IMG/VR virus record: IMGVR_UViG_2690316121_000004
Coordinates: 1 to 6,447 of that record
From: a virus
Taxonomy: Duplodnaviria > Heunggongvirae > Uroviricota > Caudoviricetes
Direction: 5' to 3' (one strand)
DNA length: 6,447 bases
Of the stretch, positions 1 through 6,447 are shown piece after piece. How positions within the stretch are numbered: the first letter of the stretch is position 1; every line of letters starts with the position of its first letter. The notes beneath the pieces are model-generated. The model did no database searches. It had not been told where the DNA came from and saw only the letters and a program-made list of their open reading frames with translations. The position numbers and the translations under genes were made by a program.

Positions 1-55
1 TACATAACGAAAAACGCCTCGAGTGAAGCGTAATTGGTATGCGGTAACGCCGCGC

Positions 56-424
56 TCAGGCGGCCTTGATAGTCATATCATCTGAATCAAATATTCCTGA
101 TGTATCGATATCGGTAATTCTTATTCCTTCACTACCATCCATTGGAGGCCATCCTTCCTGACCATTTCCATCATTCCAGTCGAACTCACACACAACACCA
201 TATGCATTTAAGTCGCTTGAAATTGCTATAAGCAGAGCATGTTGCGCCAGCATGATTAATACAGCATTTAATACAGAGCCGTGTTTATTGAGTCGGTATT
301 CAGAGTCTGACCAGAAATTATTAATCTGGTGAAGTTTTTCCTCTGTCATTACGTCATGGTCAATTTCAATTTCTATTGATGCTTTCCAGTCGTAATCAAT
401 GATGTATTTTTTGATGTTTGACAT
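56..424 (-). CDS. ea10: Ea10-like early protein (122 aa), in the position and of the length of lambda ea10
   Basis: Intact 369-nt ORF including stop. Lies downstream of ral on the leftward (pL) transcript, as ea10 does in lambda, and has the same length. Sequence identity to lambda Ea10 is not verified from memory; the call rests on synteny and length. Confidence 0.6.
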   Translation of the reverse strand: MSNIKKYIIDYDWKASIEIEIDHDVMTEEKLHQINNFWSDSEYRLNKHGSVLNAVLIMLAQHALLIAISSDLNAYGVVCEFDWNDGNGQEGWPPMDGSEGIRITDIDTSGIFDSDDMTIKAA

Positions 425-584
425 CTATTCATATCCTCATAGATAAAAATCGCCCTCACATTAGAGGGCAAAGAAGATTTCCAATAATCAGAACAAGTCG
501 GCTCCTGTTTAGTTACGAGCGACATTGCTCCGTGTATTCACTCGTTGGAATGAATACACAGTGCAGTGTTTATTCTGTTGTTTA

Positions 585-614
585 TGCCAAAAATAAAGGC
601 CGACTATGCGGCCT
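585..614 (-). terminator. Rho-independent terminator downstream of the 149-aa gene
   Basis: On the minus strand, a stem AGGCCG / CGGCCT (597..602 and 609..614) with a 6-nt loop is followed by TTTATTTTT. It begins 5 nt after the stop codon at 619..621. Confidence 0.6.
586..601. repeat. 16-bp direct repeat GCCAAAAATAAAGGCC, copy 1 (flanks the inserted gene)
   Basis: Exact 16-bp match to 1107..1122, read directly from the sequence. Confidence 0.9.
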
Positions 615-618
615 GAAA

Positions 619-1068
619 TTACTTAACCAATGATGCTGCATATTCGATAAGGTAAAGCTTTGGGGCCAGCCAAATTTTTAACCAAGTCATATTGGTTACT
701 ACAGCAATAATAAAACTTACCCACAGAACAAAAACTGCTGCTAATGGTAAGATTAGAAAACTAATCTCACCGTTACTTTCCCAAATCATAGTCGGTTTGT
801 ATTTAGGCTTTCCCTTCTCCCATGCCCATCCTTCATCATCGAACTTACCAATTTCAACTTTTTGGTACTGTTTCTTCATAAACCAGAAAACCAACGGGAT
901 TGTTAAAATGGCTATTAATGTTTTAATCAGACTGTCAACCATATTCCATAGCAGCAACTGATGAACAACATCAGGAATCTGTGCCTGGCTAAATGAGACA
1001 GCCGCGTCTATTCCATTACTGGCTTTTTGCAATAGTTCTACGAGAATCTTGTTTGCTTGTTCTTCCAT
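619..1068 (-). CDS. Hypothetical 149-aa membrane protein with two predicted transmembrane helices; accessory (moron) gene inserted between ea10 and ral
   Basis: Intact ORF with ATG at 1068 preceded by AAGGTGA. Two long hydrophobic segments (LIKTLIAILTIPLVFWFM and ISFLILPLAAVFVLWVSFIIAVV). Has its own terminator and is flanked by 16-bp direct repeats. Looks AT-rich by eye. No homolog recognised. Confidence 0.7.
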   Translation of the reverse strand: MEEQANKILVELLQKASNGIDAAVSFSQAQIPDVVHQLLLWNMVDSLIKTLIAILTIPLVFWFMKKQYQKVEIGKFDDEGWAWEKGKPKYKPTMIWESNGEISFLILPLAAVFVLWVSFIIAVVTNMTWLKIWLAPKLYLIEYAASLVK

Positions 1069-1106
1069 ATATCACCTTGATTGTAATAAGCATGAAATTA
1101 TTTACG

Positions 1107-1122
1107 GCCAAAAATAAAGGCC
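1107..1122. repeat. 16-bp direct repeat GCCAAAAATAAAGGCC, copy 2
   Basis: Exact match to 586..601. Lies between the ral stop and the start of the 149-aa gene. Confidence 0.9.
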
Positions 1123-1126
1123 ACCA

Positions 1127-1224
1127 TCAGGCAGCCTTGTTGTTCTGTTTACCAAATTCTCTGGCAATCATTGCCGTCGTTCGTATTGCCCACACCATTG
1201 ATTTTTATCAATGGTCGTAGTCAT
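1127..1224 (-). pseudogene. ral: ral (restriction alleviation) remnant with an internal out-of-frame deletion
   Basis: From the ATG at 1224 the minus strand reads MTTTIDKNQWCGQ, matching the lambda Ral N-terminus, then YERRQ and a stop at 1168..1170. A different frame reads WAIRTTAMIAREFGKQNNKAA with a stop at 1127..1129, matching the lambda Ral C-terminus. The roughly 30 central codons are missing. The junction sits at GTGGGCAAT (1185..1193). Confidence 0.6.
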
Positions 1225-1294
1225 ACGGATAGTCCTGGTATTGTTCCATCACATCCTGAGGATGCTCTTCGAACTCTTCAAATTCTTCTTCCAT
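1208..1294 (-). CDS. 28-aa hyperacidic peptide (MEEEFEEFEEHPQDVMEQYQDYPYDYDH), positional equivalent of lambda orf28
   Basis: ATG at 1294 preceded by GAGGTGAGAT. It overlaps the ral start by 17 nt, the same arrangement as orf28/ral in lambda. It is too short to appear in the supplied ORF track. Confidence 0.5.
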   Translation of the reverse strand: MEEEFEEFEEHPQDVMEQYQDYPYDYDH

Positions 1295-1352
1295 ATCTCA
1301 CCTCAAATAAGTGGTTTGCTGCCTAATTTCATTTTCTGGCGATCAACACAAG

Positions 1353-1736
1353 TCATCTTGCTGTCAGTTGTTTGGATTTCCGGTAGCCTGCCGCGTAAAG
1401 AGCTACATTTGGAAGACATACACCAGTTTCTGGTTGCTTATGTCCAAACTCATTCGCGTACACAATGGCCGCTCGCTCCAGATTGCGTCTGTATTCTTCC
1501 TGCTGCCAGATCACGTCCTGTGCCATGAACTTAATTGGCTTAGCGTCTTCTATGCGCTTAGGCGTTTCGTGAGTACCTTTAGCCTGAATCTGCGCTCTGC
1601 TTAGAGTAGGGCGGCGTAATACTTCTGAACTTATTGCTTCTTCGCAGGCCAGTACGCCGTTAGCTAATGCCTTTGCCTTTAAACGCTCACGACGACGAGA
1701 ACGTGAATTGCCTTTGAACTGAGTTCTGCGTGTCAT
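1353..1736 (-). CDS. N: N-family transcription antiterminator of the P22 gene 24 type (127 aa)
   Basis: Start ATG at 1736 with AGGAGG 6 nt upstream. Arginine-rich motif near the N-terminus (FKGNSRSRRRERLKAKA). C-terminus LPNVALYAAGYRKSKQLTAR closely resembles the P22 gp24 C-terminus. First gene downstream of pL and nutL. Confidence 0.8.
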   Translation of the reverse strand: MTRRTQFKGNSRSRRRERLKAKALANGVLACEEAISSEVLRRPTLSRAQIQAKGTHETPKRIEDAKPIKFMAQDVIWQQEEYRRNLERAAIVYANEFGHKQPETGVCLPNVALYAAGYRKSKQLTAR

Positions 1737-1865
1737 GTGGAACCTCCTGATGAACTTTGGCGGTGAATACAGCCGGGCGACTAACTCCGGTCGCGTAATC
1801 ATTGCAAAGCGCCTCCGCCGAGAAGGTTAGCTTCTGCATTCACCCCAAAGTTCACTTTGGTTATT

Positions 1866-1880
1866 GCGCTTTGTCAGCGC
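1866..1880 (-). promoter_or_regulatory. nutL boxB RNA hairpin (P22 type)
   Basis: The transcribed (minus) strand reads GCGCTGACAAAGCGC: a 4-bp GC stem with loop TGACAAA, identical to the P22 boxB-left as I recall it. It lies in the pL leader upstream of N. No convincing boxA was found. Confidence 0.7.
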
Positions 1881-1948
1881 CGTAGATTCATATTCGAATC
1901 GTTGTATATTCACCGCCCTGGTGAGTAGTGCGTCCTGCTGATGTGTTT

Positions 1949-1977
1949 AGTATCACCGCTAGTGGTATTTGTGTCAA
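1949..1977 (-). promoter_or_regulatory. pL promoter (-35 TTGACA at 1972..1977, -10 GATACT at 1949..1954, minus strand)
   Basis: Canonical lambda pL hexamers with 17-bp spacing, overlapping OL1 and OL2. Confidence 0.8.
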
Positions 1978-2011
1978 CACCGCTAGAGATAATTCATCAC
2001 CGCAGATGGTT
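1951..2011. promoter_or_regulatory. OL operators: OL1 1951..1967, OL2 1975..1991, OL3 1995..2011
   Basis: Three 17-bp lambda-type repressor sites: TATCACCGCTAGTGGTA, CAACACCGCTAGAGATA, CATCACCGCAGATGGTT. Confidence 0.85.
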
Positions 2012-2157
2012 ATCTGTATGTTTTTTATATGAATTTATTTTTTGAATTGGGGTATTGCTTTGGAGGGCGAGAGATCTGAATTGCGATGTTTAGTGAGTTG
2101 TATCTATTTATTTTTCAATAAATACAATTGGTTATGTGTTTTGGGGGCGATCGTGAG

Positions 2158-2185
2158 GCAAAGAAAACCCGGCGCTGAGGCCGGG
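2158..2185 (-). terminator. Rho-independent terminator ending the cI-operon transcript (lambda timm equivalent)
   Basis: On the minus strand, stem CCCGGC / GCCGGG with a 6-nt loop is followed by TTTTCTTTG. It starts 7 nt after the stop of the 332-aa ORF. Confidence 0.7.
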
Positions 2186-2192
2186 ATGAGGA

Positions 2193-3191
2193 TTATGTTA
2201 TCTCTTTGACATAAAGTATTATCGCGGACTTTATTTCACCATCTAGTTCTTTTGCGTTGATTGACAAATGAACTGGTTTTCTATCCCACTCAGCTTGCTG
2301 AAGAGCTTTTTTATGCTCGGATGCGTCGAGAAAAACATCTTGTACTATGCACGATATTCTTAGATCGGAGTCAACATTTCTCACTTGCACTTTGAAGCTC
2401 TCTGGATCAGTGGAGTCAACCTTTTCAATGCGATAATTTCCATCAAGGCGGATCTCCATTGATTTCCGCCTTGCATTTGTAGTGAGGGTTTTGGATAGAT
2501 CTGCATCCAATACAACGCCATCAATCTGAGCTGTATCAGCCTTGACAAATGATTTAACTATGTCGGTTTTTGCGTCATGAGCAAGTCTTTCCATGTTGTC
2601 TAGCTTGGGTTTTTCGCTAATAATCTGAGTCAATAATTCACTTCGTTTTGTTTCCTGCTCAGACATGAAGCGCATGGTCGCAAGGTGTTCACGCTCAGAC
2701 TCGCTTTTTACTTCTGCCATGCGAATCTCTTTGCGGTCTTCTAGATATTTTTTGAATAGGACGACGCCGCCCCATATAAGAGCGACCCCTAAAACTGTAA
2801 TAACGATCTCTTGAGGGCCCACTTTACTCACCGCAGTTTGTATAACCTCACCCATGAACCCATCCATATTAACTTCTATCAAGGACGAGCCATTCTCAAC
2901 ATTCACCTGAATTTCGATAGCTTCCTTCTCTTCTTTTGAAAGCTTTCTTGGGTCAGGAACTCCGTACTTTAACAATGCATAAGCTCGGTTTATTTGGGCC
3001 TGCATTTCAACAAAACCCTTCATCACAGAAGGAGTCAAACTGCCATGAAATTTGTCACCAGTAAGACGGAAGGTTAAGTTAGGCCACCCTTCAAATGATA
3101 TTCCATCAGGAAGATCTTGCCCAGCGATGTACATCTCAACAAAACGCAAAGCATCTTCTTCGGAATGAATAACCGCCGTGCTGATTTCCAA
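2193..3191 (-). CDS. Hypothetical 332-aa single-pass membrane protein in the rexA-rexB slot; candidate phage exclusion / abortive-infection determinant
   Basis: Intact ORF directly downstream of cI on the same strand. The first in-frame start is TTG at 3191 with GAGG 7 nt upstream; the first ATG is at 3134 (residue 20) and has no Shine-Dalgarno. One strongly hydrophobic segment (IVITVLGVALIWGGVVLF, about residues 130-147) is followed by KKYLEDRKEIR and a long charged region. Not similar to RexA or RexB as I recall them. Confidence 0.8.
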   Translation of the reverse strand: MEISTAVIHSEEDALRFVEMYIAGQDLPDGISFEGWPNLTFRLTGDKFHGSLTPSVMKGFVEMQAQINRAYALLKYGVPDPRKLSKEEKEAIEIQVNVENGSSLIEVNMDGFMGEVIQTAVSKVGPQEIVITVLGVALIWGGVVLFKKYLEDRKEIRMAEVKSESEREHLATMRFMSEQETKRSELLTQIISEKPKLDNMERLAHDAKTDIVKSFVKADTAQIDGVVLDADLSKTLTTNARRKSMEIRLDGNYRIEKVDSTDPESFKVQVRNVDSDLRISCIVQDVFLDASEHKKALQQAEWDRKPVHLSINAKELDGEIKSAIILYVKEIT

Positions 3192-3261
3192 GACTAAACC
3201 TCTATAATTATTAATAATTTCAAATGATTGCTGTTTTTATTAGGAGACATTTAGCCCTTCA

Positions 3262-3978
<717 letters not shown>

Positions 3979-3981
3979 TTA

Positions 3982-4010
3982 AATCTATCACCGCAAGGGA
4001 TAAACATCTA
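3982..4010 (-). promoter_or_regulatory. pRM promoter (-10 TAGATT at 3982..3987, -35 TAGATG at 4005..4010, minus strand)
   Basis: Lambda pRM architecture overlapping OR3 and OR2. The -35 reads TAGATG where lambda has TAGATA. Confidence 0.75.
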
Positions 4011-4049
4011 ACACCGTGCGTGTTGACTATTTTACCTCTAGCGGTGATA
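3986..4049. promoter_or_regulatory. OR operators: OR3 3986..4002, OR2 4009..4025, OR1 4033..4049
   Basis: TATCACCGCAAGGGATA, TAACACCGTGCGTGTTG, TACCTCTAGCGGTGATA. Lambda-type tripartite operator between divergent cI and cro. Confidence 0.9.
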
Positions 4050-4051
4050 AT
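4022..4051 (+). promoter_or_regulatory. pR promoter (-35 TTGACT at 4022..4027, -10 GATAAT at 4046..4051)
   Basis: Canonical lambda pR hexamers with 18-bp spacing. The cro Shine-Dalgarno (TAAGGAGG) and ATG follow. Confidence 0.85.
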
Positions 4052-4075
4052 GATTACCTGTACTAAGGAGGTTGT

Positions 4076-4276
4076 ATGGAACAACGCATAACCCTGAAAG
4101 ATTATGCAATACGCTTTGGGCAAACCAAGACGGCTAAAGATCTCGGTGTATATCAAAGCGCGATTAACAAGGCCATTCATGCAGGCCGAAAGATTTTTTT
4201 AACTATAAACGCTGATGGAAGCGTTTATGCGGAAGAAATAAAGCCCTTCCCAAGTAACAAAAAAACAACTGCATAA
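4076..4276 (+). CDS. cro: Cro repressor, lambda type (66 aa)
   Basis: Matches lambda Cro over all 66 residues except about 2 conservative changes (M12I, V55I from memory). Strong Shine-Dalgarno upstream. Confidence 0.95.
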
Positions 4277-4314
4277 GTAACACCGCTATTTTCACAATGG
4301 ACATTCGTCCTACG

Positions 4315-4329
4315 TCGCTGACAAAGCGA
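4315..4329 (+). promoter_or_regulatory. nutR boxB hairpin (TCGCTGACAAAGCGA), with a possible boxA-like CGCTATTTT at 4284..4292
   Basis: 4-bp stem with loop TGACAAA, the same loop as nutL boxB, located just downstream of cro. The boxA call is weak: one or two mismatches to CGCTCTTTA and a longer spacer than in lambda. Confidence 0.6.
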
Positions 4330-4403
4330 GTCCCAATATATCTGACCAACTAAGGCCATATGCGTTTCCACGCATACCTTTCAACTAACTATTCACTATT
4401 GGA

Positions 4404-4437
4404 AATCTTAAGAAATGGAACAAACAAATTACAGCAA
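4404..4437 (-). promoter_or_regulatory. pRE-like CII-dependent promoter (TTGC-N6-TTGT site at 4424..4437, -10 AAGATT at 4404..4409, minus strand)
   Basis: On the minus strand: TTGCTGTAATTTGT, then 14 nt, then AAGATT. This mirrors lambda pRE (TTGC-N6-TTGC, 13 nt, AAGTAT) and overlaps the cII start codon as in lambda. Confidence 0.5.
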
Positions 4438-4711
4438 ACTATCACAGCGCGACGTTGATCGCGCAGAAACAGATTTACTTATCAACCTGTCAACGCTTAC
4501 TCAGCGCGGTCTGGCAAAGATGATTGGCTGTCATGAATCGAAGATAAGCAGAACAGACTGGAGGTTTATAGCTTCGGTCTTGTGTGCTTTTGGCATGGCA
4601 TCAGACATCAGTCCGATTAGCAGAGCTTTTAAGTATGCGCTTGATGAAATCACCAATAAAAAACGCCCGGCGGCAACCGAGCGTTCTGAACAAATCCAGA
4701 TGGAATTCTGA
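4415..4711 (+). CDS. cII: CII transcriptional activator, chimeric (98 aa)
   Basis: The C-terminal 19 residues (TNKKRPAATERSEQIQMEF) are identical to lambda CII. The N-terminal 79 residues are divergent but alignable, including the helix-turn-helix region. Confidence 0.85.
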   Translation: MEQTNYSKLSQRDVDRAETDLLINLSTLTQRGLAKMIGCHESKISRTDWRFIASVLCAFGMASDISPISRAFKYALDEITNKKRPAATERSEQIQMEF

Positions 4712-4734
4712 GGTCATTACTGGATCTATCAACA
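4655..4734 (-). ncRNA. oop: oop antisense RNA with its intrinsic terminator
   Basis: The minus strand reads GTTGATAGATCCAGTAATGACCTCAGAATTCCATCTGGATTTGTTCAGAACGCTCGGTTGCCGCCGGGCGTTTTTTATT, matching lambda oop as recalled. A promoter-like pair lies upstream on the minus strand (-10 CATAAT near 4741..4746, -35 TTGAGT near 4764..4769). Confidence 0.8.
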
Positions 4735-4743
4735 GGAGTCATT

Positions 4744-5642
4744 ATGACAAATACAGCAAAAATACTCAACTTCGGCAGAGGTAACTTTGCCGGACAGGAG
4801 CGTAATGTGGCAGATCTCGATGATGGTTACGCCAGACTATCAAATATGCTGCTTGAGGCTTATTCAGGCGCAGATCTGACCAAGCGACAGTTTAAAGTGC
4901 TGCTTGCCATTCTGCGTAAAACCTATGGGTGGAATAAACCAATGGACAGAATCACCGATTCTCAACTTAGTGAGATTACAAAGTTACCTGTCAAACGGTG
5001 CAATGAAGCCAAGTTAGAACTCGTCAGAATGAATATTATCAAGCAGCAAGGCGGCATGTTTGGACCAAATAAAAACATCTCAGAATGGTGTATCCCTCAA
5101 AACGAGGGAAAATCCCCTAAAACGAGGGATAAAACATCCCTCAAATTGGGGGATTGCTATCCCTCAAAACAGGGGGACACAAAAGACACTATTACAAAAG
5201 AAAAAAGAAAAGATTATTCGTCCGAGAATTCTGGCGAATCCTCTGACCAGCCAGAAAACGATCTTTCTGTGGTTAAACCGGATGCTGCAATTCAGAGCGG
5301 CAGCAAGTGGGGGACAGCAGAAGACCTGACCGCCGCAGAGTGGATGTTTGACATGGTGAAGACCATCCGCCATCAGCCAGAAAACCGAATTTTGCTGGGT
5401 GGGCTAACGATATCCGCCTGATGCGTGAACGTGACGGACGTAACCACCGAGACATGTGTGTACTGTTCCGCTGGGCATGCCAGGACAACTTCTGGTCCGG
5501 TAACGTGCTGAGTCCGGCCAAACTCCGCGACAAGTGGACCCAGCTCGAAATCAACCGAAACAAGCAACAGGCTGGCGTGACAGCCGGCAAACCAAAACTC
5601 GACCTGACGAACACTGACTGGATTTACGGGGTGGAGCTATGA
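4744..5642 (+). pseudogene. O: O replication initiator, frameshifted (N-terminal 225 codons in one frame, C-terminal 73 codons in another)
   Basis: The ORF 4744..5421 matches the lambda O N-terminal domain; the ORF ending at 5642 matches the lambda O C-terminus and overlaps the P start (ATGA) as in lambda. The span is 899 nt, not a multiple of 3. The frames switch at about 5364..5372 (ATCCGCCATCAGCC here; lambda has ATCGCACCATCAGCC as recalled). Confidence 0.85.
5092..5216. other. ori-lambda: four iterons (about 5092..5111, 5112..5131, 5134..5156, 5159..5178) plus an AT-rich unwinding region (5179..5216)
   Basis: Four repeats of ATCCCTCAAAACGAGGGA-like sequence, followed by CACAAAAGACACTATTACAAAAGAAAAAAGAAAAGATTATTCG, inside the O coding region. 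Confidence 0.9.
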
Positions 5643-6340
5643 AAAACATCGCCGCACAGATGGTTAACTTTGACTGTGAGCAGATGCGCCGGATCGCCAA
5701 CAACATGCCGGAACAGTACGACGAAAAGCCGCAGGTACAGCAGGTAGCGCAGATCATCAACGGTGTGTTCAGCCAGTTACTGGCAACTTTCCCGGCGAGT
5801 CTGGCTAACCGTGACCAGAACGAACTGAACGAAATCCGCCGCCAGTGGGTTCTGGCTTTCCGGGAAAACGGGATCACCACAATGGAACAGGTTAACGCAG
5901 GAATGCGCGTAGCCCGTCGGCAGAATCGACCATTTCTGCCATCACCCGGGCAGTTTGTTGCATGGTGCCGGGAAGAAGCATCCGTTATCGCCGGACTGCC
6001 AAACGTCAGCGAGCTGGTTGATATGGTTTACGAGTATTGCCGGAAGCGTGGTCTGTATCCAGATGCAGAGTCTTATCCGTGGAAATCAAACGCGCACTAC
6101 TGGCTGGTTACCAACCTGTATCAGAACATGCGGGCCAATGCGCTTACTGATGCGGAATTACGCCGTAAGGCCGCAGATGAGCTTGTCCATATGACTGCGA
6201 GAATTAACCGTGGTGAGGCGATCCCTGAACCAGTAAAACAACTTCCTGTCATGGGCGGTAGACCTCTAAATCGTGCACAGGCTCTGGCGAAGATCGCAGA
6301 AATCAAAGCTAAGTTCGGACTGAAAGGAGCAAGTGTATGA
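5639..6340 (+). CDS. P: P replication protein (DnaB helicase loader), lambda type (233 aa)
   Basis: Full-length, near-identical to lambda P. The start overlaps the O stop. Confidence 0.95.
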   Translation: MKNIAAQMVNFDCEQMRRIANNMPEQYDEKPQVQQVAQIINGVFSQLLATFPASLANRDQNELNEIRRQWVLAFRENGITTMEQVNAGMRVARRQNRPFLPSPGQFVAWCREEASVIAGLPNVSELVDMVYEYCRKRGLYPDAESYPWKSNAHYWLVTNLYQNMRANALTDAELRRKAADELVHMTARINRGEAIPEPVKQLPVMGGRPLNRAQALAKIAEIKAKFGLKGASV

Positions 6341-6447
6341 CGGGCAAAGAGGCAATTATTCATTACCTGGGGACGCATAATAGCTTCTGTGCGCCGGACG
6401 TTGCCGCGTTAACAGGCGCAACAGTAACCAGCATAAATCAGGCCGCG
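6338..6447 (+). CDS. ren: ren (Rex-exclusion resistance), 5' end only; runs off the window
   Basis: Translation MTGKEAIIHYLGTHNSFCAPDVAALTGATVTSINQAA matches the lambda Ren N-terminus. The ATG overlaps the P stop. Confidence 0.85.

What the first reader, a model, noticed from the sequence alone, without database searches (positions are those of the whole stretch)
5349..5423. Frameshift in the replication initiator gene O
The O reading frame changes at about 5364..5372. The upstream frame terminates at 5419..5421 after 19 out-of-frame codons (RHQPENRILLGGLTISA), while the downstream frame carrying the conserved C-terminus (MRERDGRNHRDMC...) is open from 5352. The O start-to-stop span is 899 nt. 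The C-terminal domain that recruits P/DnaB would not be made as a fusion, so the prophage is probably replication-defective unless the two frames are joined by recoding. Together with the ral deletion this suggests a decaying or domesticated prophage that still keeps its cI-linked accessory gene.
Basis: seen in the sequence. Interest (0 to 1): 0.6.

Follow-up and report, generated by a model that had tools for sequence, protein, structure and literature searches.

The report
One-base deletion splitting prophage gene O
The lambda-type replication initiator gene O in this short draft-assembly contig is missing one G, which breaks its reading frame; this is an ordinary gene-killing lesion or an assembly error, not a recoding signal.

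Summary
The frameshift is in the sequence as described. One G is missing between window positions 5367 and 5368 (ATC GCG CCA has become ATC CGC CAT). O is split into a 225-aa ORF (4744..5421: 208 native residues plus 17 out-of-frame, not 19) and a 73-aa ORF (5421..5642, O residues 227-299). The two ORFs overlap as TGATG. Adding the G back gives a 299-aa O that differs from lambda O at 2 residues.

The deletion is private to this contig. It is absent from all 4402 homologous O copies in 5426 complete E. coli genomes, and the 225-aa product is on record only here. I found no slippery heptamer, no stimulatory RNA structure, no ribosome-binding site for the 73-aa ORF, and no conservation of the frameshift. 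Recoding is therefore not supported.

The lost residues 209-226 include 7 invariant positions, and the break falls inside the predicted 5-helix C-terminal domain. If the deletion is real, O is very probably null.

The window is a 6.4-kb contig of a draft assembly. An independent assembly of what is probably the same isolate breaks at the start of O, so O-P is repeated in that genome. An assembly error is about as likely as a real recent mutation. Frameshifted O genes are common and already annotated in E. coli prophages. Interest is low.

The parts
4744..5421 (+). Upstream O ORF, 225 aa: native O residues 1-208 plus 17 out-of-frame residues, then TGA
   Evidence: ORF list. Pfam Phage_rep_O scores 124 bits on residues 22-115. 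The exact product is on record only from this contig.
5367..5368 (+). Site of the missing G. Codon 209 GCG is reduced to -CG, and the frame changes here
   Evidence: Four-way DNA alignment. It is the only indel against Z1323HEC0477 over 6447 nt and against six O-P relatives.
5368..5418 (+). 17 out-of-frame codons, RHQPENRILLGGLTISA
   Evidence: Translation.
5352..5418 (+). Interval where both frames are open. It has no slippery heptamer and no run longer than 4
   Evidence: Script. RNA fold z = +0.53.
5419..5423 (+). TGATG: the stop of the upstream ORF overlaps the ATG of the downstream ORF. In intact O this ATG is simply Met227
   Evidence: Sequence. The same TGA ends other frameshifted O alleles.
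5421..5642 (+). Downstream ORF, 73 aa, equal to O residues 227-299. It lacks helix 1 and most of helix 2 of the C-terminal domain
   Evidence: ORF list. PHROG 'replication initiation O-like' C-terminal match. AF2 model.
5093..5176 (+). Four ori-lambda-type iterons inside O, intact
   Evidence: Pattern search found 4 matches against 0.02 expected.
5639..6340 (+). Gene P, intact. Its start overlaps the O stop (ATGA)
   Evidence: ORF list. Pfam Phage_lambda_P. The same 233-aa protein is listed in 395 blocks of the collection, and the DNA is identical to relatives.

Best explanation
A lambda-type O gene has lost a single G in codon 209, and no recoding is involved. Taken at face value, this is a very recent, strain-private loss-of-function mutation.

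The ribosome would make a 225-aa product. It keeps the winged-helix ori-binding domain, the disordered linker and the first helix of the C-terminal domain, then 17 nonsense residues. The 18 most conserved residues of the C-terminal domain (209-226) are not encoded in either ORF. The remaining 73 residues could be made only by inefficient re-initiation at the overlapping TGATG.

The ori-binding part and the P-binding part are then no longer one polypeptide, and the P-binding domain is broken. The truncated O can therefore sit on the four intact iterons but cannot bring P-DnaB to ori. This prophage could not start replication on its own after induction.

Shown here: the lesion, its uniqueness, the absence of recoding signals, and where the break falls in the predicted fold. 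Inferred: that the protein is null. Not resolvable here: whether the base is truly missing in the cell.
For: - Single-G gap against intact relatives. It is the only indel in 6447 nt.
- The repaired ORF gives a 299-aa O that differs from lambda O at 2 residues and from the 2013C-4991 O at 1 residue.
- The lost residues 209-226 include P210, A212, P215, W220, N222, R225 and L226. These are invariant across 25 O homologues from Escherichia, Salmonella, Pantoea and Mixta.
- AF2 model of an intact O: folded residues 28-112, disordered 115-186, helices 192-208, 217-229, 235-247, 258-263 and 265-278. The break is at residue 208/209, and Met227 lies inside helix 2.
- PMC6022878 reports that an O of 294 of 299 residues is already inactive, and it assigns P binding to the COOH-terminal region.
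- The deletion is not in a homopolymer, which is the usual place for sequencing indel errors.
- Real, inherited O frameshifts do exist. A TTTT->TTT allele ending at the same TGA is 100% identical over 111 nt in at least 12 complete genomes, and PGAP annotates it as 'frameshifted'.
Against: - The lesion is unique. It is absent from 4402 copies in 5426 complete E. coli genomes, from GTDB representatives, from IMG/VR and from JGI metagenomes. The 225-aa product is on record from this one contig only, with no Logan source.
- There is no sign of relaxed selection downstream: one synonymous change in O and none in P.
- The contig comes from a draft assembly. The O-P module is repeated in what is probably the same isolate's genome (Logan ERR178187 contig = window 1312..4761 exactly).
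- The gap sits between the two SNPs (5364 and 5369) that distinguish the two common O alleles.
- All of this fits an assembly or consensus error equally well.
Confidence: 0.5

Rival explanations
1. Assembly or consensus error. The isolate's O gene is intact, and the missing G was introduced when a short-read assembler or gap-closer resolved a two-copy O-P repeat shared by two lambdoid prophages in the same genome.
For: - The window is a complete 6447-bp contig of draft assembly GCA_001286485.1.
- The Logan assembly of run ERR178187 gives a contig that is an exact substring of the window, 1312..4761. It ends 18 nt into O and just left of N. So k-mers from about 4732 onward occur at another locus in that genome.
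- The gap lies between the two SNPs that separate the ACT-ATC-GCA and ACC-ATC-GCG alleles.
- The lesion is unique among 4402 copies, and the 225-aa product has no Logan record.
- The downstream coding sequence is flawless.
- Other draft assemblies show O broken at scaffold gaps or by multiple back-and-forth frameshifts, which are clearly artefacts.
Against: - The deletion is not in a homopolymer.
- De Bruijn-graph assemblers normally output one of the real paths rather than create a 1-nt loss.
- The ACC/GCG patch in an otherwise 2013C-4991-like background can be a natural mosaic. L052 has the same right-hand breakpoint.
- I could not see reads or the assembly method.
- The link between ERR178187 and this assembly is inferred from sequence identity, not documented.
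Confidence: 0.43
2. Programmed recoding, or a functional two-piece O. Either a -1 ribosomal frameshift in 5352-5418 restores full-length O, or the 225-aa and 73-aa products, translationally coupled through TGATG, together supply O function.
For: - The needed shift is -1 and both frames are open for 67 nt.
- The stop and start overlap as TGATG.
- Another allele with the same two-ORF layout persists in many complete genomes.
Against: - There is no X_XXY_YYZ heptamer in the overlap. The only one in O is at 5106, far upstream.
- The longest homopolymer run is 4, and there is no SD before ATG 5421.
- The RNA fold is no more stable than shuffled sequence.
- 0 of 4402 homologous copies and 0 of 60 sampled phage records carry the shift. 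The TGATG is therefore a by-product of Leu226-Met227 in the normal frame.
- Residues 209-226, with 7 invariant positions, are lost under the two-piece model.
- The persistent TTTT->TTT allele sits in a decayed prophage with a frameshifted integrase and IS insertions.
Confidence: 0.03
3. Selected or domesticated fragment. The ori-binding N-terminal fragment is retained because it blocks replicative killing of the host on induction, or because it interferes with incoming phages that use the lambda-type origin.
For: - The N-terminal DNA-binding domain and the iterons are intact.
- Loss of O/P function is the classic way to survive induction of a lambda fragment (the RK- mutants described in PMC6022878).
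Against: - The allele is private to one contig, so there is no evidence of retention over time.
- O is transcribed from pR, which cI represses in a lysogen, so the fragment would not normally be present (established lambda biology).
- There is no signature of selection with only one synonymous change available.
Confidence: 0.04

Closest known systems
Bacteriophage lambda replication initiator O (299 aa) with ori-lambda inside the gene
   Same: After adding back one G, the product differs from lambda O at 2 of 299 residues, S282G and D298E. It shares the same Pfam Phage_rep_O domain, the same four iterons, the same cII-O-P order, and the same O-stop/P-start overlap.
   Different: The frame is broken after residue 208. 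Residues 209-226 are not encoded, and residues 227-299 are in a separate ORF.
PGAP-annotated 'replication protein, frameshifted' pseudogenes of cryptic lambdoid prophages, for example E. coli FDAARGOS_536 at icd
   Same: A 1-nt deletion in the same 67-nt interval. The upstream ORF ends at the same TGA with the tail ...GGLTISA, and a 73-aa C-terminal ORF follows.
   Different: That lesion is a T-run contraction (TTTT->TTT). It is in an O gene with a different N-terminal type, is shared by many complete genomes, and sits in a visibly decayed prophage (frameshifted integrase, IS elements). The window's lesion is private and not in a homopolymer, and the rest of the visible module is intact.
Lambda O amber mutants studied by complementation (Oam905, Oam29, Oam205; PMC6022878)
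   Same: N-terminal O fragments that lack the COOH end. The paper reports that loss of even the last 5 residues abolishes activity.
   Different: Those are nonsense mutations in laboratory phage. Here the lesion is a frameshift in a wild prophage, and no phenotype was measured.
Programmed -1 ribosomal frameshifting (dnaX, IS elements, phage tail assembly chaperones G/GT)
   Same: Two overlapping frames related by -1.
   Different: No slippery site, no stimulator, and no conservation.

Membership tests
Lambda-type replication initiator O (Pfam PF04492 Phage_rep_O family) | N-terminal origin-binding domain matching Phage_rep_O | tested here: met
   124.3 bits against a cutoff of 28.7, residues 22-115, full profile length.
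Lambda-type replication initiator O (Pfam PF04492 Phage_rep_O family) | Origin iterons located inside the gene | tested here: met
   Four iteron matches at 5093-5176, against 0.02 expected by chance.
Lambda-type replication initiator O (Pfam PF04492 Phage_rep_O family) | Synteny cII-O-P, with the O stop overlapping the P start | tested here: met
   Gene calls and Pfam labels. ATGA at 5639-5642.
Lambda-type replication initiator O (Pfam PF04492 Phage_rep_O family) | N-terminal and conserved C-terminal domains encoded as one uninterrupted ~300-aa polypeptide | tested here: not met
   The frame is broken at 5367/5368, giving 225-aa and 73-aa ORFs. As sequenced it is an O pseudogene, not an intact member.
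Programmed -1 ribosomal frameshift site | Slippery heptamer X_XXY_YYZ in the zero frame within the two-frame overlap | tested here: not met
   None in 5352-5418. The only heptamer in O is at 5106.
Programmed -1 ribosomal frameshift site | Downstream stimulatory RNA structure or upstream SD-like element | tested here: not met
   MFE of 5352-5470 has z = +0.53 against shuffles. Best AGGAGG match is 3 of 6.
Programmed -1 ribosomal frameshift site | The frameshifted gene arrangement is conserved among relatives | tested here: not met
   All 4402 homologous places in complete E. coli genomes carry the extra base; the best identity is 99.0% with 102 against 101 nt. All 60 sampled phage records carry it too.
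Decaying (cryptic) prophage | Several independent inactivating lesions, IS insertions, or loss of essential modules | tested here: inconclusive
   Only 6.4 kb is visible. The ral internal deletion plus the O frameshift are the only lesions. N, cI, cro, cII and P are intact. The rest of the prophage lies on other contigs.
Sequencing/assembly artefact | Variant absent from the raw reads, or present only in a repeat-collapsed consensus | not testable with these tools
Indirect evidence: a draft contig, and O-P repeated in the genome according to the Logan contig break at 4761.

The most novel reading that the evidence does not exclude
The split is real and tolerated or useful. Either the 225-aa ori-binding fragment and the TGATG-coupled 73-aa fragment together still support replication, or the fragment acts as a dominant-negative origin binder that protects the host from replicative killing or from incoming lambda-ori phages. 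The independent, widely inherited TTTT->TTT allele with the same two-ORF layout would then be a second example of a retained split initiator.
Probability: 0.03. Interest if true: 0.4.

Novelty: already known. Interest (0 to 1): 0.08.

Why it matters
It matters little. If the deletion is real, one prophage in one E. coli isolate cannot start its own replication. That is a routine step in prophage decay, and genome annotation pipelines already flag it in many genomes. If it is an artefact, it only illustrates that draft contigs crossing repeated lambdoid modules should not be used to infer gene inactivation. The practical point for the scan is that a private single-base frameshift in an otherwise perfect gene, on a short contig from a multi-prophage genome, needs read-level confirmation before any biological reading.

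Tried and rejected
1. Recoding. I scanned the whole O zero frame for X_XXY_YYZ heptamers, looked for runs of 4 or more, checked for SD complementarity before ATG 5421, and folded 5352-5470. Nothing was found.

2. A mutational hotspot at 5352-5418. Exact look-ups of the 73-aa product returned several other 1-nt deletions in the same interval: GGG->GG, AAAA->AAA, TTTT->TTT and CC->C. I rejected a hotspot reading. A 73-aa ORF starting at Met227 is called only when the shift lies between the upstream in-frame Met and Met227, so the sample is selected for that interval. Lesions elsewhere give other ORF lengths, for example 222+124 aa.

3. Independent confirmation from the isolate's own reads via Logan. 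I found the isolate-like run ERR178187 through its rare N variant, but its contig stops at 4761. Look-ups of the 73-aa, P and 149-aa proteins did not surface other ERR178187 contigs.

4. Chimeric-haplotype argument. No complete genome has the window's local haplotype even when the gap is ignored; the best is 98.7% over 306 nt. However, a draft genome (L052) shows a natural mosaic with the same right-hand breakpoint. This is therefore only weak evidence for an artefact.

5. Literature searches for the assembly and run accessions found nothing.

6. No solved structure matched O by sequence, and there was no Rfam hit in the window.

Full report
**What the window is**

The 6447-nt window is the whole of contig CYGI01000033.1 from the draft E. 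coli assembly GCA_001286485.1. It holds the early region of a lambdoid prophage. On the minus strand are a DUF2528 gene, a 149-aa ORF, an N-type antiterminator, a 332-aa ORF where lambda has rexAB, and a 237-aa cI. On the plus strand are cro, cII, O, P and the start of ren.

**The observation**

I aligned 5290-5460 with the O genes of a near-identical prophage (E. coli Z1323HEC0477), phage SfI and lambda. The alignment shows exactly one gap: the G of ATC-GCG-CCA is missing between window 5367 and 5368.

- The upstream ORF (4744..5421) has 225 codons: 208 native codons plus 17 out-of-frame codons (RHQPENRILLGGLTISA).
- The other frame is open from 5352, after TGA 5349-5351. Its first ATG is at 5421 and overlaps the stop as TGATG. 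It runs to 5642 and encodes 73 residues.
- The start-to-stop span is 899 nt, against 900 nt in every relative.
- The gap is the only indel in 6447 nt against Z1323HEC0477 and against six O-P relatives.
- Adding the G back gives a 299-aa protein. It differs from lambda O at 2 residues and from the closest complete-genome allele (strain 2013C-4991) at 1 residue.

**How common the lesion is**

- A 101-nt query around the site matches 4402 places in 3220 of 5426 complete E. coli genomes. The best identity is 99.0%, with 102 record bases against 101 query bases, so every copy has the extra base.
- An exact-pattern scan found nothing in GTDB species representatives, IMG/VR or JGI metagenomes.
- All 60 sampled phage records out of 156 also carry the extra base.
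- The 225-aa product is on record, among about 15 billion proteins, only from this contig.

The lesion is private to this contig.

**Recoding**

Restoring the frame would need a -1 shift within 5352-5418.

- That interval has no X_XXY_YYZ heptamer. The only one in the O zero frame is at 5106.
- The longest homopolymer run is 4, so transcriptional slippage is not plausible.
- The sequence before ATG 5421 has no Shine-Dalgarno match better than 3 of 6.
- The RNA from 5352 to 5470 folds no better than shuffled sequence (z = +0.53).
- There is no Rfam hit.
- No relative has the shift. The TGATG overlap is therefore a by-product of Leu226-Met227 in the normal frame.

Recoding is not supported.

**Consequences if the deletion is real**

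The Pfam Phage_rep_O domain (residues 22-115) and the four iterons at 5093-5176 are intact. I aligned 25 O homologues from Escherichia, Salmonella, Pantoea and Mixta. The residues lost from both ORFs (209-226, APSARKPNFAGWANDIRL) include 7 invariant positions.

An AlphaFold2 model of an intact 299-aa O, built on that alignment, has these features:

- Mean pLDDT is 60 overall, but about 80 in the two domains.
- A folded N-terminal domain spans 28-112.
- A disordered linker spans 115-186.
- A C-terminal bundle has helices at 192-208, 217-229, 235-247, 258-263 and 265-278.

The frame breaks at the end of the first of these helices, and Met227 lies inside the second. Neither product therefore contains a whole C-terminal domain.

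PMC6022878 cites the evidence that the N-terminal region of O binds DNA and the COOH-terminal region binds P. It also reports that an O of 294 of 299 residues is inactive and that O is only weakly complemented in trans. By inference, the 225-aa product could occupy ori but could not recruit P-DnaB. P itself is intact and has its own GGTGGAG motif upstream.

**Real mutation or artefact**

Several facts point to a possible artefact.

- The contig is a short piece of a draft assembly.
- The N variant of this contig is on record in only three contigs. One of them, from the Logan assembly of run ERR178187, is an exact substring of the window, 1312..4761. That run is therefore very probably the same or a clonal isolate; this is inferred from identity, not documented.
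- The independent contig ends 18 nt into O and just left of N, which are the module boundaries of the immunity region. In a de Bruijn graph this means that sequence from about 4732 rightwards, and from about 1342 leftwards, also occurs elsewhere in the genome. A second lambdoid prophage therefore shares at least the start of O.
- The published contig runs 1.7 kb further through that repeat.
- The gap lies between the two SNPs (5364 and 5369) that separate the two common alleles, ACT-ATC-GCA and ACC-ATC-GCG.
- No complete genome has the window's local haplotype, even ignoring the gap (best 98.7% over 306 nt).
- Downstream of the gap there is only one difference from relatives, a synonymous one at 5450. 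P is identical.

Other facts count against an artefact.

- The site is not a homopolymer.
- A natural mosaic with the same right-hand breakpoint exists (L052).
- Real inherited O frameshifts are common (next section).

I cannot see reads. I put a real, very recent mutation at about 0.5 and an assembly error at about 0.43.

**How ordinary a broken O is**

- The exact 73-aa product is called in 22 contigs. Upstream of it I found other 1-nt deletions (GGG->GG, AAAA->AAA, TTTT->TTT, CC->C), scaffold gaps and a larger deletion.
- The TTTT->TTT allele is 100% identical over 111 nt in at least 12 complete genomes. In strain FDAARGOS_536 it lies in a decayed prophage next to icd, with a frameshifted integrase and IS elements. 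PGAP labels it 'replication protein, frameshifted'.
- Other assemblies split O as 222+124 aa, or carry in-frame deletions or multiple frameshifts.
- The apparent clustering of lesions in 5352-5418 is an ascertainment effect of looking up the 73-aa ORF.

Frameshifted O genes in E. coli prophages are a known and routinely annotated class.

The ral deletion is real. An 18-codon remnant (MTTTIDKNQWCGQYERRQ*) lies at 1168-1224 on the minus strand. The 284-nt stretch between the 149-aa ORF and N aligns in two pieces to 387 nt of ral-N in CUS-3, Sf6 and DE3.

The same remnant is annotated in the Z1323HEC0477 prophage, whose O is intact. That prophage differs from the window at only 4 positions left of O. 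The ral loss therefore predates the O lesion and is unrelated to it. With only 6.4 kb in view and all other genes intact, 'decaying or domesticated' is not shown.

**Verdict**

The frameshift is present as described. It is a private 1-nt deletion in an otherwise intact lambda-type O gene, with no recoding signal. It is either a very recent null mutation or an assembly error in a repeated module. Both are ordinary. Novelty: already known. Interest: 0.08.

Noticed in passing
window 1069-1352, remnant ORF 1168-1224 (-): ral is reduced to an 18-codon remnant (MTTTIDKNQWCGQYERRQ*) by an internal deletion of about 103 nt relative to CUS-3, Sf6 and DE3. The same remnant is annotated in the Z1323HEC0477 prophage, which has an intact O.
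   Followed up: partly
window 2193-3191 (-): A 332-aa ORF lies directly downstream of cI, where lambda carries rexA-rexB. It matches phrog_6191 (unknown function, E = 1e-137). It has no Pfam family above cutoff and no PADLOC defence model. The same cI/332-aa/N block recurs in several other assemblies.
   Followed up: partly
window 619-1068 (-): A 149-aa ORF between the ral remnant and the DUF2528 gene. It matches phrog_3054 (unknown function) with no Pfam or PADLOC hit, and it is found next to many different immunity regions.
   Followed up: partly
window 1312 and 4761 (ends of Logan contig ERR178187_209, L017): An independent assembly of what is probably the same isolate covers only 1312..4761 exactly. 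It breaks at the immunity-region module boundaries, which implies a second lambdoid prophage in that genome sharing the flanking modules, including the start of O.
   Followed up: partly
L039 (E. coli FDAARGOS_536, NZ_CP033762.1) 8413-9323; also L013, L019, L025, L027: A different O frameshift (TTTT->TTT at the position equivalent to window 5390-5393) ends at the same TGA and leaves a 73-aa ORF. It is identical in at least 12 complete E. coli genomes and several metagenome assemblies. In FDAARGOS_536 it lies in a decayed prophage beside icd.
   Followed up: partly
L053 and L054 (GCA_900196195.1, GCA_900196205.1) 5022-6004: Two assemblies carry O split into 222-aa and 124-aa ORFs by another lesion further upstream, linked to the same P allele as the window.
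   Followed up: no
window 4744-6447 compared with 1-4743: Mosaic signal. Against the Z1323HEC0477 prophage the window has 4 differences in the 4743 nt left of O but 31 differences in the O-P-ren part. Its O-P is instead closest to the allele of strain 2013C-4991, which has a different immunity region.
   Followed up: partly
window 5450: A private synonymous change (CGA instead of CGC, Arg) 83 nt downstream of the deletion. It was not seen in any of the roughly 25 related loci compared. It could serve as a marker to anchor reads to this O copy.
   Followed up: no
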